A stretch of DNA of 64,000 nt from the human T2T-CHM13v2.0 reference genome, Homo sapiens, in NCBI GenBank assembly GCA_009914755.4, contig CP086569.2, positions 7,456,001 to 7,520,000 of the forward strand, given 5' to 3'. Position numbers and translations under genes: made by a program. Below the pieces are notes generated by a model that was given only the letters and a program-made list of their open reading frames with translations, was not told where the DNA came from and ran no database searches. This document shows positions 3,600 to 26,880 of the stretch, piece by piece; the stretch's first letter is position 1; the number at the start of each line of letters is the position of its first letter.

Positions 3600-6500
3600 C
3601 AGGGCATGCCCACATGTTGACAACCCTGGAGCCCCTTTTTCCCAGGGAGGACTTGAGCAGGAAAAGCAAGATGTAGGACAGAGAAAGACTAATTCATAAA
3701 GGTAAGGGAGTCATGCCCTTAAAAAAGAAACACAAACTCTTCTAAAAGGTGAGGGAAACACTCATGTGAGGTGGTACCATGCAGAAGAGTCACATTACCT
3801 TGAGGCTGGGTCCAGGCATATGTCACAACCTTCCCTTAGGACAAGACCCAGGCAAGAGAGTTTCAACAAATAGGTACATGTTCCACCTTTATGTTGTAAT
3901 GCTTCATATGGGCAAGGCTCAAGCAGGTAGTCATATCACCTAGGTAACAGGCCCAGATATATGTCACAATATCCTCCTTGAGACATGATTCTGGGGAAAC
4001 TCTACCACCATCTGTGTGCCTTGCCTAGCAATATGTCACTATCCAGGTAAGCCAGACCCAAGCAGGAGAGCAGAAATACGAACCTGATAGGCCAAGGTAT
4101 TTGTCACAATCCCCTTTTTTGGACATTACCCTAGAAAAAGAGTACCATCAACAGTGTGCCAGTCCCAGCCATGTGCTACTATCCCCTAGTGTGAGTACAG
4201 CCCATTCTAAAGAGGAGATTTGTACAACCTAACTGGTTGATACAGTGATATGTCACAATGACTTCTGTGGGCATGGCTTAGGCAAAAATGTAACATGACC
4301 TCCGTGCTGGATCTAGTGATATATCACTCTTCTTACTGAGAGCAGGATCCAGGCAGGAAAGTCACATTACCTAGAGGTTGGCCAAGGTAGATATAACAGT
4401 AACATATGTGGGCTGGAACCAGTCTGGAGAGTCAGATCACACAGGTGTTTGGCAGAGATTTATATCACAATCACACTGGCAAAAAATTCCCTGGATGAGA
4501 TTTACAATACCACACATGTCCTTTTATCATGAGCAACAGTTGGCTTCATATATGTAAGACAGTGACAGCGCTTACTGTCATCTGGTGTGAATATGAGATA
4601 ATTTCACCTTTCTGCTGGGTTCTGCTATGACACTCTCTGTCCAAGCCAAGTGCTACATAAAATATCTGAGGCTGTTATAATCTTCTTTGAGCTTTTTTTA
4701 CCAGAAAGATATTTAATCACTCCTTTTTCTAAAACAAGTTATAAGAGTCAAAATTACACCTATTTGTGGGATGCACATGTAAGAGTCATTATCATGCCTG
4801 TGAACTGTGCCTATATATGTAAGAATTTACTCTGTGTTGATGAAATAGACATGACAGTGAAGTAACCTAAATTCTGAGAGAGAAATGTGCCAATATTCTC
4901 CTTGTAGGTATGTTCCTGGCAGAAAAGTTGCATAACTTGGGGGTTAAAGACAGGAATATGGCACAATGCCCATTGTGGGCAGTGTCCAGACAGAAGAAGA
5001 GACTCATATCACCTAAATGACAAACCCAGAATATGTCACAATGTATCCTGTTGAAAGGACCAGGTAAGAGAGTCACATCATTTAGATGCAGTGCTTAGGA
5101 ATGTGACAATCCCCATTGGAAGGAGGGTCAGGGCAGGAGAGGACAGTCAGGTAACTAGATCATGGGTCCAGAGACATGCAACAATCCTTCCTGAGGTTAT
5201 TGTTAAGACAGGAGTGTCAAATCACTGTGGTGATCAGCTATGATATACGTCCAAATCTCATTTGTGGACTATACCTAAGCAGGATTATTAAATAACTCAG
5301 GAGATGGGCAAAGGTATATGTTACAATAATACAGGGTGAAAATTACAGGAATGGGAGTCACCGTCTTGCATATGACATGTCTCCAGGTTTAAGAGTCATA
5401 ATTAGTCCTCATATCTGGTCTCAGTTATATGGCACAGTATTACTTGTGGGCAGAGGGCAAGCAGGAAGGTGACTTTACCTAGGTGGGTGCTGGTCCAGTA
5501 AGATGTCACAATCCTTCTTGTGGGCAGGACAATGGAAGAAGAGTCAAATCACCAGGATGCCGATTTTAGTGATTTATCAAGATTCCCCCTGTTAACAGGG
5601 ATTAGGAAGGTGAGAAGACTCATGTTACTTTTGCAATTGGCCTAGATATGTGTCTCAATGGCTGCTATGTGCTAAACCAAGGTATGAAAGTTGCCTCACC
5701 TTGGCCATGGGTTTAGCAATATGTCACAATCTCCTCTGTGGTCAGGGCAAGACATGAGAGAAAAAATATTTAGATTCTGAGACAAGTGTTTCTGTTGGCA
5801 GAGCCCAAAAAAGAGAGTCACATCACCTGCTTGCGGTGCCCAGTTATGTGTCATAATGCATGATAAGTGCAGGGCCAAAGCAGTAGAAGGGAGTCACATC
5901 ACTTACACAATGGACCTGGATATAAGCCACATATATCTAGATATATTGCCTTTTATAGGCAAGAATCAGGCAAAGAATTCACATCACCTGGGAGCTGATC
6001 CCAGTGATACTTAAAAGTGCCCTTTATAGGCCTGCCCAGACATCTTCACTTAGGTGTATGATCCATGTATATCACAATTTCATCACTAGTCATAACCTAA
6101 AAAGGAAAGTCAAGTTATTCAGGAGCTGTGCTACCTTTTTGTCCTAATCACACACTAGACAATATTCAGAAGTAAGATTCATAGTCCTGCAGAAGTCCTG
6201 GCTTCTTGCATGTGAGTCAACACCTCCTGTGAGTTAGGTTAAAGCAGAGAAGTCACAATCTCAACAATAACAATGGGTAACATCCATGTATAAGATGCCC
6301 AATCTCACTTGAAGATTGTGTTCCACTAGAGGAGTCACATCGTCACAGGTGTGTAGAATCATGCATCAGCAAATGACACATGAATAAGATCCATGTATGA
6401 GGGGAACATTTGCAACCTTTGACTGCTTTTATGTGTGAGATTTAGTAACTTAATTTTAGGCCCTGTTCTTGTGAGAGAATGAAAATTGGATCAGCTTGGT

Positions 6501-24500: not shown

Positions 24501-26880
24501 AACCTAACAATAATTTAAATTGCACCCATGGAAAAGAATTTAAGCTAAAAATTCTCAACTCCTAGGGATATTGGCCTTGTGAAATAAAATAATTTTATCA
24601 TCTTTCAAGTGACACCTTTAACTGTTAGCTTGGTGTGTATATAAAAGTCACAATCTCATGTGTGTTCTGAGTCATTGTATGACACACTACAACATCCGAA
24701 GGCTTTATGCAACATGCAGGAGAGTTGCAAACCACTCTGAGGCCTACATGCTTATATTGACTCACAATCTTAAATATTTATTTAAAGCCAGATAGGACGG
24801 TCAACATGTCTCTTATAGGCTAAGTTCAGATATGAGACCCACTATTACACCTGTGATTTGGGTCCAGAAATGAGTTACCATCTCACCTATAGCAAGATCC
24901 ACATATGAAAGTCACAATTCCATCTGTGTTCTTTATTTACATGTTAGACTCAGGACTTCAACACTGGGTTTGCTAAATGTGGGAGGGTGACACATTTTGC
25001 TATCACCTGGCTAGGTAATCAAGGTCAGAATCCTCACCTTTTCCTGGGCCCTGTTATCAAACTGTGTACCACCCAAGGAGTTTTTAGAATATGAGTTAAT
25101 GTTGTAACTTTCTGTGAGCTTTATTCCAATATGCAACTCATAACAGTACCTATTGCCCTAAGTGTAGCGATGAGAGGCAAAATATCTACTATATGTGGCA
25201 TACCAATTTAAGTTTGATCAGCATGCTTCTGAATTCAAACAATGTAAATTTCACAATCGCATTTGTAAGAAAAAAGCTTGTCAGGAGGGCAGGACAACTT
25301 TGTTGTTCTGCCAAGCAATATGTCACAATGCCATTTTTTTTTGTTTCTCTGGCACAGTCCAGAGAGTTATATCATCAGGGTTGGGGTCCCAGCAACATGC
25401 CATAAAAGTATATCACAATGGCCACTATGTGCAAAACAAAAGTATGAAAGTGACATCACCTTACCAATGGTTTAACAATATGCCACAATCTTCTCTGTGA
25501 TCAGGGTGAGGCAACAGTGGAGAAACATCACCTAGGTTCTGAGCCAAGTGATATGTTAACAAAGCTTTCTGTTGGCAGGACCCAAAACAGAGTCACATTA
25601 CCTGGGTACAGTACCCAGTTATGTGTCACAATGAACTATAAGTGCAGTCTCAAGGCAGTAAAATGGAGTCATGTCACTACAAAATGAACCTAAATATAAG
25701 CCAGAATGCTTTTTATATGCAGGGGTAAGGCAAATAATTCACATCACCTGGGTGCTGGTCACAGTGATATGTAAAAGTGCTCTTTTTAGGCAGTCTCAGA
25801 CAACTTTGCTTATGTGCATGGCCCACGTATGTCACAATTGCATCTGTCATCATGGCCTAAAATGGAAAGCCAAATTATTCAGAAGCTGGAATAACTTTTA
25901 TATTCTAATCAAACCAAATTGAATATTTAGAAATGTGCTTCCAGTTCCACAAATGTCCTGGCTTTTTGTACGTGAGTTGACACCTCCTGTGAGTTGGGTT
26001 GAAGCAGAGGAGTCACAATCTCAACAGTCAGCCAAGAGATTAAAGCCAAAACACCTACAGAATGAGCCAAAGATATGTCAAAAATACTCTCTGTTCCTCT
26101 GGCACAGACAGGACAGTATCATCATCAGGGTGATATGCCTCCCAGTATGCAATAATTCTCACTTTATTGAGGTCTCTGGCAGAAGAGTAACATCATCTGT
26201 GTGCAATAAGTCAAAATTTCCCTTTCTGGGCATGGTTCATAGAAAAGAGTAGAGTCAAAAGACCAAAATGCTGAGCTCACCAATATGCCACTATCCCACC
26301 ATATTAAAGGCCCAGGCAGCATAAAAGAGTCATATCACTTAGGTCATGGCTCAGAGACATGTACCAATATCCCCAGTAGGCAGGACTCAGGCAGAAAATA
26401 AGAGTCGTATCACCTAGGTGCTTCTTTAATTATATGTCACAATATAACACATAGGCAGAAATCAGGCAGAGGAGCCAGAGCACCTGGGTGCTGGGTCCCG
26501 ATATATGTTGCAAGTTCCCTTAGGATGAACCAAGTTGAAAGAGTTCATTGCCTTGATGCAAGTATAACATTCGTTTCACAATGTCCTATGTGGAAGAGGC
26601 CAAAGCATTGAGCTACATCACTTACTTGATAGGACCAGAAATATGTCACAATCTCCTCCCTGAAATATAACCCTGGCAAAAGAGTGCTACAATCTTAGTG
26701 CCAGCCTAGCAATATGTCATTACCACCCGCTGTTTTCAGGACCCATTCCAGAGATGTCATAATTATTTCTGTGGGTGTGGCCCAGGCAAGAATGTATCAT
26801 CACTTGGGTTTTAGATGCAGGGATATGTCACAATCCTTACTGAGAGAACAGCCAAGACAGGAGTATCACATATGTTCAAT
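3600..26880 (+). repeat. Beta-satellite-like tandem array (~68-70 bp monomers, ~23 kb) arranged in a ~5-6 kb higher-order repeat
   Basis: Head-to-tail monomers approximating GAGTCACATCACCTAGGTGCTGGGCCCAGCAATATGTCACAATGCCCTGTGGGCAGGGCCCAGGCAGGAGA. TGTCACAAT cores recur every 68-70 nt (e.g. 15404, 15472, 15542). GATC present in a subset (e.g. AGATCCAGTGATATGTCACAAT near 15390). Longer sub-modules recur at 4790/10770/15860/22050 and 5400/11380/16480/22650. Array edges carry degenerate monomers (3590-3760). Confidence 0.75.
13582..13881 (+). mobile_element. Alu SINE inserted into satellite HOR copy 2
   Basis: GGGCCAGTCGTGGTGGCTCACGCCTG ... A14 tail. The homologous position in the other HOR copies (about 8.84 kb, 18.66 kb, 24.85 kb) lacks it. 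Confidence 0.9.

What the first reader, a model, noticed from the sequence alone, without database searches (positions are those of the whole stretch)
3600..26880. Satellite array is a higher-order repeat with variable unit length (5.98, 5.09, 6.19 kb) and an internal 1.8-kb re-duplication
Beyond the 68-70 bp monomer, distinctive sub-modules recur with long periods. CATTATCATGCCTGTGAACTGTGCC is at 4790, 10770, 15860 and 22050. CATTATTATGCCTTTGTTGTGGTCTCAGG is at about 5400, 11380, 16480 and 22650. CACAATCTCAACAAT...CCATGTAT is at 6260, 12240, 17330 and 23520. All give the same successive spacings of about 5.98, 5.09 and 6.19 kb, so HOR copies differ in monomer number. A GGATGGTAACAA...TTTCACCTG module recurs at 8962, 13954, 18790, 20560 and 24985. 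This shows that copy 3 contains an extra partial duplication of about 1.77 kb. Several modules, such as the ~300 nt after GGATGGTAACAA, do not look like simple 68-mers, so the HOR includes non-satellite or strongly diverged inserts. This records repeated unequal exchange. HOR copy identity could date the array relative to the Alu, ERV and L1 insertions.
Basis: seen in the sequence. Interest (0 to 1): 0.55.

Follow-up and report, generated by a model that had tools for sequence, protein, structure and literature searches.

The report
Fossil beta-satellite array, multi-layered repeat
The long-period repeat is real, but it is an old, decayed relative of primate beta satellite built by nested tandem duplications next to a zinc-finger pseudogene, a kind of structure already described for primate zinc-finger gene clusters.

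Summary
Window 3762-26871 is one + strand array of about 71-nt monomers, and it repeats with spacings of 5.98, 5.09 and 6.18 kb. These offsets exceed every one of 100 monomer-permuted controls.

The interpretation needs correcting in five ways:
- Copies are only 69-79% identical, so this is a fossil, not a homogenised higher-order repeat. Tandem Repeats Finder sees nothing in it.
- The base unit is about 4.86 kb, roughly 68 monomer lengths. The 1.6-1.77 kb tail duplication is in copy 1 as well as copy 3, so long and short units alternate.
- The youngest layer (75-79% identity) fits an 11.4 kb tandem duplication.
- The array resumes at 57999-63530. That block best fits the displaced second half of the 11.4 kb copy. 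The two halves are separated by 33 kb that holds an ERV, L1, Alus and a C2H2 zinc-finger pseudogene.
- The "non-68-mer" modules are not shown to be foreign. They are one module of about 200-245 nt that recurs four times per unit and is partly monomer-derived. The only foreign insert found in the first array block (3762-26871) is an Alu at 13581-13882.

The monomer consensus is 77% identical to canonical 68-nt beta satellite recovered from metagenome contigs, but it lacks the Sau3A site. This matches what is known of beta-satellite blocks in the 19p12 ZNF cluster. Interest is low.

The parts
3762..26871 (+). Block 1 of the beta-satellite-related array (23.1 kb). All monomers are on the + strand.
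   Evidence: Iterated monomer HMM: 249-282 hits, all confident ones on the + strand, and none outside 3762-26871 and 58033-63348. GC 41%, CpG o/e 0.09.
3763..9832 (+). Unit V1 (long, 6.07 kb). It consists of head plus tail copy a (to 8224, with a roughly 300-nt deletion in G3/G4) and tail copy b (8225-9832).
   Evidence: 7433-8166 vs 9046-9781, offset 1613. (V1 has only 283 of about 570 columns in cols 3850-4420)..
9833..14846 (+). Unit V2 (short, 5.01 kb; 4.71 kb without its Alu). It has a single tail copy.
   Evidence: Closest relatives are V4 head (77%) and V5t (75%).
13581..13882 (+). Alu inserted in V2. It is absent from all paralogous units.
   Evidence: Matches 9 other Alu copies in the window. 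K2P to the window Alu consensus is 0.14.
14847..21314 (+). Unit V3 (long, 6.47 kb). It consists of head plus tail copy a (to 19664) and tail copy b (19665-21314).
   Evidence: 17917-19336 vs 19682-21096, offset 1765. V3b is closest to V1b, 73-77%.
21315..24770 (+). V4 head, the first 3.5 kb of a short unit. It is the sister of V2 head and lacks module G1.
   Evidence: 10730-13587 vs 22013-24867 at 76.4%. 77-78% in the unit alignment. The switch of sister falls near column 3830.
24771..26871 (+). Rearranged terminal satellite. It holds a unit tail with no close sister (to 25332), then 25361-26030 (closest to V1 5601-6266), 26031-26450 (closest to V1 7801-8224), then a unit-head fragment.
   Evidence: 77% and 76% to V1 pieces, 65-73% to the other units.
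26872..57998 (.). Non-satellite spacer of 31 kb. It holds a gammaretrovirus-like ERV (about 30675-41212), an L1 RT fragment (43295-44851), about 8 Alus, simple repeats, and a C2H2 zinc-finger pseudogene.
   Evidence: Pfam hits Gag_MA, Gag_p30, RNase_H, rve, TLV_coat and RVT_1. LTR pair 30901-31552 / 40412-41063 at 95.1%. Alus.
53583..54828 (-). Degenerate C2H2 zinc-finger exon (pseudogene) with an 84-nt finger period.
   Evidence: TRF period 84/168. zf-H2C2_2 and zf-C2H2 hits. Only broken ORFs are present. No KRAB exon was found.
57999..63530 (+). Block 2 of the array. V5t (57999-59077) is the sister of V2 tail, and V6 (59078-63530) is the sister of V3 head plus tail a. An Alu and (ATAG)n interrupt it at about 62201-62663.
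   Evidence: 13876-18002 vs 58127-62233 at 76%, and 17995-18876 vs 62660-63543 at 75.5%.. Sequence after about 63530 is not satellite.
18748..19059 (+). Other copies are at 8926-9234, 13909-14231, 20509-20820, 24938-25247, 58160-58468 and 63415-63545. G1-G3 of the same unit are at 15533-15823, 17516-17751 and 18391-18610.
   Evidence: Gaps in monomer tiling of the unit consensus. G1-G4 align to each other at 74% mean column identity. Similarity to the monomer exceeds shuffles. Coordinates.

Best explanation
This is a relic array of a diverged beta-satellite relative, with 71-nt monomers that lack the Sau3A site. It grew by nested tandem duplications and has since decayed without homogenisation.

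Inferred order of events:
1. About 68 monomer lengths became a 4.86-kb unit. This unit included four copies of a diverged multi-monomer module of about 200-245 nt.
2. The unit was amplified in tandem. This is the oldest layer, K2P about 0.39-0.41.
3. The last 1.6-1.8 kb of one unit was duplicated in tandem, giving a long unit next to a short one.
4. An 11.4-kb segment (tail copy b, short unit, head and tail a of the next unit; 8225-19664) was duplicated in tandem. This produced the long-short-long-short pattern and all the sister pairs at K2P about 0.28-0.31.
5. The second copy was split at unit column about 3830 by 33 kb (24771-57998). The left 2.1 kb of that segment is satellite in phase with the broken unit. 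The rest is unique DNA with a ZNF pseudogene, later loaded with an ERV, L1 and Alus.

Shown: the duplications, their relative order and the in-register junctions. Inferred: unequal crossing-over as the mechanism, and homologous invasion on one side with end-joining on the other as the origin of the 33-kb segment.

The DNA is non-coding. Its likely present role is passive. It is methylated repeat DNA between zinc-finger gene duplicons that offers homology for further non-allelic exchange.
For: - Monomer HMM tiling is on the + strand only.
- The unit consensus of 4860 nt is tiled by about 46 strong monomers at spacings of 70-72 nt.
- In the unit alignment all pairs are 69-70% identical, except V2-V4 at 76% and V3-V6 at 77%.
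- Segment-wise sister pairs: V1b~V3b, V2head~V4head, V2tail~V5t, V3~V6. Their K2P is 0.275-0.31, against 0.39-0.41 for other pairs.
- These sisters are collinear with 8225-19664 once 24771-57998 is removed. V4head plus V5t is 4.53 kb, against 4.71 kb for V2 without its Alu.
- Permutation control. Orthologous vs non-orthologous monomer identity 72.5% vs 53.6%.
- The monomer consensus is 55/71 identical to the consensus of 61 canonical 68-nt arrays from metagenome contigs.
- CpG o/e is 0.09 with a TpG/CpA excess.
- Six further contigs carry paralogues of the same unit at 66-77%.
- The literature states that the 19p12 ZNF cluster is interspersed with beta-satellite blocks (PMC3018141).
Against: - V1 head has its closest relatives in two fragments at the right end of block 1 (25361-26450), which a single 11.4-kb duplication does not explain.
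- The V2-V4 identity falls gradually, from 79% to 69-75% over columns 3400-3860. The break is therefore placed mainly by where block 2 starts.
- Sister assignments over 300-600 columns rest on identity differences of 5-9 points.
- Block 2 is cut by non-satellite sequence at 63530 and by the window end, so the rest of the presumed copy cannot be seen.
- No repeat library was available. I could not rule out a transposon origin for parts of G2 (its first 300 nt) or of G4.
- Species and chromosome could not be established.
Confidence: 0.8

Rival explanations
1. An active or recently homogenised higher-order repeat, whose copies differ in monomer number through ongoing unequal exchange.
For: The long-period structure is real and the unit lengths differ.
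Against: Copy identity is 69-79%. TRF cannot detect even the monomer. The Alu in V2 is as diverged from an Alu consensus (K2P 0.14) as each member of the youngest sister pairs is from their common ancestor (about 0.14-0.155). CpG is almost gone.
Confidence: 0.03
2. Block 2 (57999-63530) is not the displaced half of an 11.4-kb duplicate. It is the start of the next copy of a tandem segmental duplication of about 44.5 kb (13490-57998 copied to 57999 onward), independent of the 11.3-11.6 kb offsets inside block 1.
For: Block 2 starts abruptly at unit column 3831 next to non-satellite DNA, as a duplication breakpoint would. The offset is constant at about 44.2 kb over 4 kb, then 44.7 kb over a further 0.9 kb after the Alu/(ATAG)n insertion in block 2. 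The literature reports that zinc-finger clusters expand by segmental duplication bounded by satellite (PMC3018141).
Against: The breakpoint would have to coincide with the point where V4 stops being the sister of V2. It also leaves the V4 tail without a sister, although an 11.4-kb tandem duplication should have made one. The part of the spacer that would be duplicated lies beyond the window, so no direct support is available.
Confidence: 0.2
3. A composite repeat whose unit captured foreign, transposon-derived DNA before amplification, so that the G modules are non-satellite.
For: 28% of the unit consensus is not tiled by monomers. G4 has only marginal monomer similarity: 2 of 200 shuffles reach its summed score.
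Against: G1-G4 are homologous to each other. Their shared core aligns to the monomer at about 10 sd above shuffles. G1-G3 exceed 199-200 of 200 shuffles. There is no similarity to the L1, ERV or Alu copies in the window.
Confidence: 0.12
4. The long-period matches are chance recurrences of similar monomer variants.
For: Monomers share a conserved ATGTCACAAT core, so short motifs recur often.
Against: Collinear alignments of 3-4 kb. Offset peaks 2-3.5 times the maximum of 100 permuted arrays. Position-specific monomer identity is 19 points above background.
Confidence: 0.01

Closest known systems
Beta-satellite blocks interspersed in the human 19p12 KRAB zinc-finger gene cluster (Eichler et al. 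1998, Genome Res 8:791)
   Same: A satellite block of about 23 kb with beta-type monomers and a multi-kb higher-order structure. It sits in Alu-bearing primate DNA, 27 kb from a C2H2 zinc-finger pseudogene. PMC3018141 states that the 19p12 cluster is interspersed with beta-satellite blocks. From my memory of the 1998 abstract: the blocks are 25-30 kb, have a complex higher-order structure, and the cluster is dated to about 50 Myr.
   Different: The 1998 paper is not in the library, so its unit structure could not be compared. From memory it describes inverted, symmetrical blocks, whereas both blocks in this window are direct. The chromosomal origin of the window could not be tested.
Canonical beta satellite (Sau3A family; 68-nt monomer, pB3/pB4 HORs on chromosome 9 and the acrocentrics)
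   Same: Homologous monomer, 55/71 identical to a consensus of 61 canonical arrays. Head-to-tail arrays with multimeric higher-order units.
   Different: The monomer is 71 nt, not 68. There are 0.15 Sau3A sites per monomer against 1.01. GC is 41% against 47.5% in the reference loci and 52% in the T2T survey. Copy identity is 69-79%, not near-identical.
Beta-composite arrays (beta satellite interspersed with LSau or D4Z4)
   Same: The satellite monomers alternate with a second, longer module in a fixed order within a multi-kb unit (Altemose preprint).
   Different: The second module here appears to derive from the monomer itself and is AT-rich. I found no evidence of LSau or D4Z4, and I had no LSau reference sequence to test against.
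Macrosatellites (for example the SST1 arrays flanking a 19q13 ZNF cluster, or D4Z4)
   Same: A kb-scale unit in tandem next to zinc-finger genes (PMC3018141).
   Different: Macrosatellite copies are highly similar and vary in copy number. These copies are 21-31% diverged. Polymorphism cannot be tested here.

Membership tests
Beta satellite (Sau3A family) | Monomer sequence homologous to the 68-nt beta consensus | tested here: met
   The reference consensus was built from 61 period-68 arrays in metagenome contigs. The window consensus is 55/71 identical to it, and 41/57 outside the 14-nt anchor used to retrieve the references.
Beta satellite (Sau3A family) | Tandem monomer of 68 nt | tested here: inconclusive
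   Head-to-tail tiling is present, but the modal spacing is 71 nt (53 cases) with a second class at 75-76 nt. A spacing of 68 nt occurs in only 11 cases. Spacing on the unit consensus is 70-72 nt.
Beta satellite (Sau3A family) | A Sau3A (GATC) site in nearly every monomer | tested here: not met
   0.15 GATC per 71 nt in block 1, against 1.01 per 68 nt in the reference arrays. The consensus reads GGTGCTGG where the canonical sequence reads GGTGATCA.
Beta satellite (Sau3A family) | G+C-rich (about 52%) | tested here: not met
   GC is 41%, and 44% in the unit consensus. CpG o/e of 0.09 with TpG/CpA excess points to decay from a richer ancestor (52%).
Satellite higher-order repeat | Monomers at the same position of different units are more alike than monomers within a unit | tested here: met
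   72.5% (297 pairs) against 53.6% (13232 pairs). Only 0.25% of non-orthologous pairs reach the orthologous mean.
Satellite higher-order repeat | Near-identical unit copies maintained by homogenisation | tested here: not met
   69-70% for most pairs, and 75-79% for the youngest.
19p12 ZNF-cluster beta-satellite blocks | Satellite block of tens of kb adjacent to KRAB-ZNF genes or pseudogenes | tested here: met
   A 23.1-kb block and a 5.5-kb block flank a 31-kb spacer that holds a C2H2 finger-array pseudogene. No KRAB exon was seen in the window.
19p12 ZNF-cluster beta-satellite blocks | Location in human 19p12 or its primate orthologue | not testable with these tools
   No eukaryotic genome collection was available. 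Alus show a primate origin. A 1294-nt contig from a JGI metagenome (sample type not known) is 100% identical to the pseudogene. That fits host-DNA contamination but does not prove it.
19p12 ZNF-cluster beta-satellite blocks | Inverted, symmetrical arrangement of blocks (recalled from the 1998 abstract) | tested here: not met
   All monomers in both blocks are on the + strand. An inverted partner could lie outside the window.
Macrosatellite | kb-scale unit in tandem with high copy identity and copy-number polymorphism | tested here: not met
   The unit size fits (4.7-6.5 kb) but identity is 69-79%. Polymorphism is not testable.

The most novel reading that the evidence does not exclude
The array preserves a clustered, 71-nt proto-beta satellite without the Sau3A site, whose unit duplications are as old as old Alus. 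That would be much older than the stage at which clustered beta satellite is said to appear: traced back to gorilla and not detected in a rhesus library (PMC3488192). The 33-kb segment splitting one unit, in phase on one side only, would be the footprint of a homology-primed copying event that carried a zinc-finger gene fragment into a satellite block. That would be a direct trace of how satellite blocks mediated expansion of the gene cluster.
Probability: 0.25. Interest if true: 0.35.

Novelty: already known. Interest (0 to 1): 0.15.

Why it matters
The layered duplications give a relative clock for this part of a zinc-finger gene cluster. The order is: unit amplification, tail duplication, 11.4-kb duplication, interruption, Alu insertions, and finally an ERV whose LTRs are 5% diverged. 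This supports the older idea that satellite blocks served as recombination substrates during cluster expansion. It also gives an outgroup-like, ancient form of the beta-satellite monomer. It does not reveal a new kind of element or a new mechanism. A standard repeat annotation of a complete primate genome would show the same structure.

Tried and rejected
- TRF on the whole window finds no array in 3600-26880.
- Rfam at gathering threshold gives no hits.
- A protein search with the 104-aa pseudogene ORF returned only 4 unnamed metagenome proteins, so it gave no gene or species name.
- Eichler 1998, Waye & Willard 1989, Hamilton 2006 and the published Altemose 2022 paper are not held in the library.
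- A text search for the monomer core in papers found only unrelated primers.
- The supplements of PMC2655687, which contain beta-satellite ChIP clones, are not held.
- A fuzzy six-frame search for KRAB-A/B exons found nothing.
- I considered that the Alu next to block 2 (57610-57906) might be the paralogue of the Alu in V2. I rejected this because the two Alus are in opposite orientations and their positions in the unit differ by about 100 nt.
- I looked for similarity between the left flank (1-3761) and the spacer, which would have suggested a donor for the 33-kb segment. Only Alus matched.
- ORFs in the array are at most 107 aa and were not pursued.

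
Full report

The motif coordinates are correct to within about 10 nt, but most motif copies are diverged. Each long motif is exact only once, with 2-6 mismatches elsewhere. 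Tandem Repeats Finder reports nothing inside 3600-26880, so the monomers are too diverged for it.

Base autocorrelation shows a weak period at 69-76 nt, with its peak at 71 nt. Self-BLAST gives collinear alignments of 3-4 kb at offsets 5981, 5090 and 6183 (68.6-69.8% identity) and an internal offset of 1765 (17917-19336 vs 19682-21096).

In an 11-mer offset histogram the peaks are 166 at 11.28 kb, 89 at 17.25 kb, 89 at 11.58 kb, 88 at 6.18 kb, 85 at 11.08 kb and 56 at 5.98 kb. The highest bin in 100 arrays with permuted 71-nt chunks was 47. Monomers occupying the same unit position are 72.5% identical, against 53.6% for other monomer pairs. The long-period structure is therefore real and not a chance recurrence of monomer variants.

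**2. What the monomer is**

I built an HMM iteratively from the array. Its consensus is ATGTCACAATGCCCTCTGTGGGCAGGGCCCAGGCAGGAGAGTCACATCACCTAGGTGCTGGGCCCAG plus about 4 nt. It finds about 250 monomers, all on the + strand, and only in 3762-26871 and 58033-63348. The modal spacing is 71 nt, with a second class at 75-76 nt.

To get a reference that did not rest on my memory, I scanned metagenome contigs for two monomer cores 50-60 nt apart. Of the 119 loci returned, 107 carry arrays of period 68, 69, 136 or 137. These have 1.01 GATC sites per 68 nt and 47.5% GC. Those are the published hallmarks of beta satellite: a 68-bp unit with a Sau3A site in nearly every unit.

The consensus of those reference arrays is ATGTCACAATGCCCCTGTAGGCAGAGCCTAGACAAGAGTTACATCACCTGGGTGATCAGTGCAGAGAT. 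It is 55/71 identical to the window consensus, and 41/57 outside the anchor used for retrieval.

The window array is therefore a relative of beta satellite, not the canonical form:
- Its monomer is 3 nt longer.
- It has 0.15 GATC per monomer.
- Its GC is 41%.
- Its CpG o/e is 0.09, with a TpG/CpA excess, which fits long decay of methylated CpG.

**3. Anatomy of the unit**

I set phase zero at the left edge of the array. The units are then:

| Unit | Coordinates | Length |
|---|---|---|
| V1 | 3763-9832 | 6.07 kb |
| V2 | 9833-14846 | 5.01 kb, including a 302-nt Alu at 13581-13882 |
| V3 | 14847-21314 | 6.47 kb |
| V4 | 21315 onward | incomplete, see section 4 |
| V5t (block 2) | 57999-59077 | unit tail only |
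| V6 (block 2) | 59078-63530 | incomplete |

A multiple alignment of the units has 4956 columns. Its majority consensus of 4860 nt is tiled by about 46 strong monomers at 70-72 nt spacing plus weaker ones, so the unit is about 68 monomer lengths.

Four stretches of the consensus are poorly tiled: G1 692-990, G2 2393-2997, G3 3574-3797 and G4 3935-4250.

These four stretches are homologous to one another over about 200-245 nt, with 74% mean column identity. Their common core, GAGAGTCACAATCTCACCTG..TGCTGGGCCCTG..TATGACAC..TCTCTGT, aligns to the monomer with score 44, against 16 +/- 2.7 for shuffles. G1-G3 exceed 199-200 of 200 dinucleotide shuffles in monomer-HMM score, and G4 exceeds 198.

The G modules are therefore an old, AT-richer derivative of the satellite that was already part of the unit before it was amplified. 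They are not demonstrably foreign inserts. I could not exclude a foreign origin for the first 300 nt of G2 or the flanks of G4.

**4. Layers of duplication**

Most unit pairs are 69-70% identical (K2P 0.39-0.41). A younger layer stands out at 75-79% (K2P 0.275-0.31). Its pairs, are:
- V1b and V3b
- V2 head and V4 head
- V2 tail and V5t
- V3 head plus tail a, and V6
- Two fragments at the right end of block 1 (25361-26030 and 26031-26450), paired with V1 5601-6266 and 7801-8224

Both long units consist of a head, a tail copy a and a tail copy b. The b copies of V1 and V3 are each other's closest relatives. The tail duplication therefore predates the younger layer and is not peculiar to copy 3. 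In V1 a roughly 300-nt deletion removed part of G3 and G4 from tail copy a, including the diagnostic motif.

The first four pairs are collinear with 8225-19664 if 24771-57998 is taken out. V4 head plus V5t is then 4.53 kb, close to V2 without its Alu (4.71 kb).

The simplest account is one tandem duplication of 11.4 kb, followed by interruption of the second copy near unit column 3830 by 33 kb:
- The left junction is in phase: V4 runs on through a unit tail that has no close sister.
- The right junction is abrupt: non-satellite DNA meets column 3831 at 57999.

I infer a homology-primed event on one side and non-homologous joining on the other. This is inference, not demonstration. The V1-like fragments at 25361-26450 are not explained by the single duplication.

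A rival account is that block 2 starts the next copy of a 44.5-kb segmental duplication. It cannot be excluded, because the window ends at 64000 and the satellite of block 2 already stops at about 63530.

**5. Surroundings and relative ages**

The spacer between the two blocks holds:
- A gammaretrovirus-like provirus, with Gag_MA, Gag_p30, RNase H, integrase and TLV_coat hits. Its LTRs at 30901-31552 and 40412-41063 have K2P 0.051.
- An L1 reverse-transcriptase fragment.
- About eight Alus. The window holds about eleven in all, counting the copies at 2127, 13581 and 62234.
- A degenerate C2H2 finger array on the - strand at 53583-54828, with no KRAB exon detected.

The Alu consensus derived from the window is a typical Alu, so the host is a primate. 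The Alu inside V2 is absent from its sisters and is 0.14 from that consensus. This is about the same as the per-lineage divergence of the youngest sister pairs (0.14-0.155), so it entered soon after the 11.4-kb duplication. The ERV is several-fold younger. Because Alus are CpG-rich and mutate faster, these comparisons give only a rough order of events.

**6. Relatives elsewhere**

Six of the metagenome contigs (L030, L038, L040, L070, L088, L089) are paralogues of the 4.86-kb unit, at 66-77% identity to the window units. L040 and L088 are 92% identical to each other. The unit family therefore exists in other blocks of what is probably the same genome, since some of the contig names give human oral, gut or skin metagenomes as source. 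A 1294-nt JGI contig is 100% identical to the ZNF pseudogene.

**7. Comparison with what is known**

The library confirms that beta satellite is a 68-bp family forming multimeric higher-order repeats (HORs). [quoted passage not shown] 1998).

The 1998 paper itself is not held. From memory, it reports blocks of 25-30 kb with a complex higher-order structure and dates the cluster to about 50 Myr. This agrees with a 23-kb block, a ZNF pseudogene and duplications as old as Alus.

Published work on canonical beta satellite places clustered arrays late, traced back to gorilla (PMC3488192). The present array is clearly older than that. However, this was already implied by the 1998 study.

**8. Verdict**

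The element is a decayed, multi-layered beta-satellite-related array of a type already described for primate zinc-finger clusters, not an active HOR and not a new kind of element. What I add is:
- the 4.86-kb base unit with four diverged sub-modules
- the alternation of long and short units
- the 11.4-kb youngest layer
- the second block
- the probable 33-kb interruption

Interest is low.

Noticed in passing
window 30602-41212: A gammaretrovirus-like provirus with broken gag, pol and env ORFs and 652-nt LTRs that are 95.1% identical. Just outside the LTR pair there is a 150-nt repeat (30675-30824 vs 41064-41212, 94%) and a 78-nt repeat (30602-30679 vs 30825-30902, 91%). The true LTR limits or a nested structure are therefore unresolved.
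   Followed up: partly
window 53583-54828 (- strand); L001: A zinc-finger pseudogene with an 84-nt finger period and frameshifts. I found no KRAB exon in the window. A 1294-nt contig from a JGI metagenome is 100% identical to it. This is most simply host DNA in the metagenome, and it hints that the window comes from a commonly sequenced host such as human.
   Followed up: partly
L030, L038, L040, L070, L088, L089: These metagenome contigs carry paralogues of the 4.86-kb satellite unit, at 66-77% identity to the window. L040 and L088 are 92% identical over 2.1 kb, so some blocks of this family were duplicated much more recently than anything in the window.
   Followed up: partly
window 51720-52151: A two-copy tandem duplication of a 215-nt unit, 96% identical, in otherwise unique spacer DNA.
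   Followed up: no
window 63531-64000: The satellite of block 2 stops inside module G4 and is followed by non-satellite sequence up to the window end. I cannot tell whether this is an insertion or the end of the block.
   Followed up: no
window 2127-2431, 13581-13882, 27666-27949, 45867-46167, 46950-47253, 49741-50037, 53012-53329, 55450-55752, 55888-56150, 57610-57906, 62234-62663: Eleven Alu copies. The ten that were aligned are 13-21% different from their joint consensus (K2P 0.14-0.25), which is unusually old-looking. The copy at 62234-62663 was not measured; it is split by an (ATAG)n run at 62362-62471. Several are adjacent to simple repeats: (TTCC)n at 49515-49755 and (AAGAA)n at 55771-55865.
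   Followed up: partly
window 21870-21884 and 24938-25332: Unit V4 lacks module G1, through a deletion of about 200-285 nt relative to V2 and V3. Its tail (24771-25332) has no close relative among the units in the window.
   Followed up: partly
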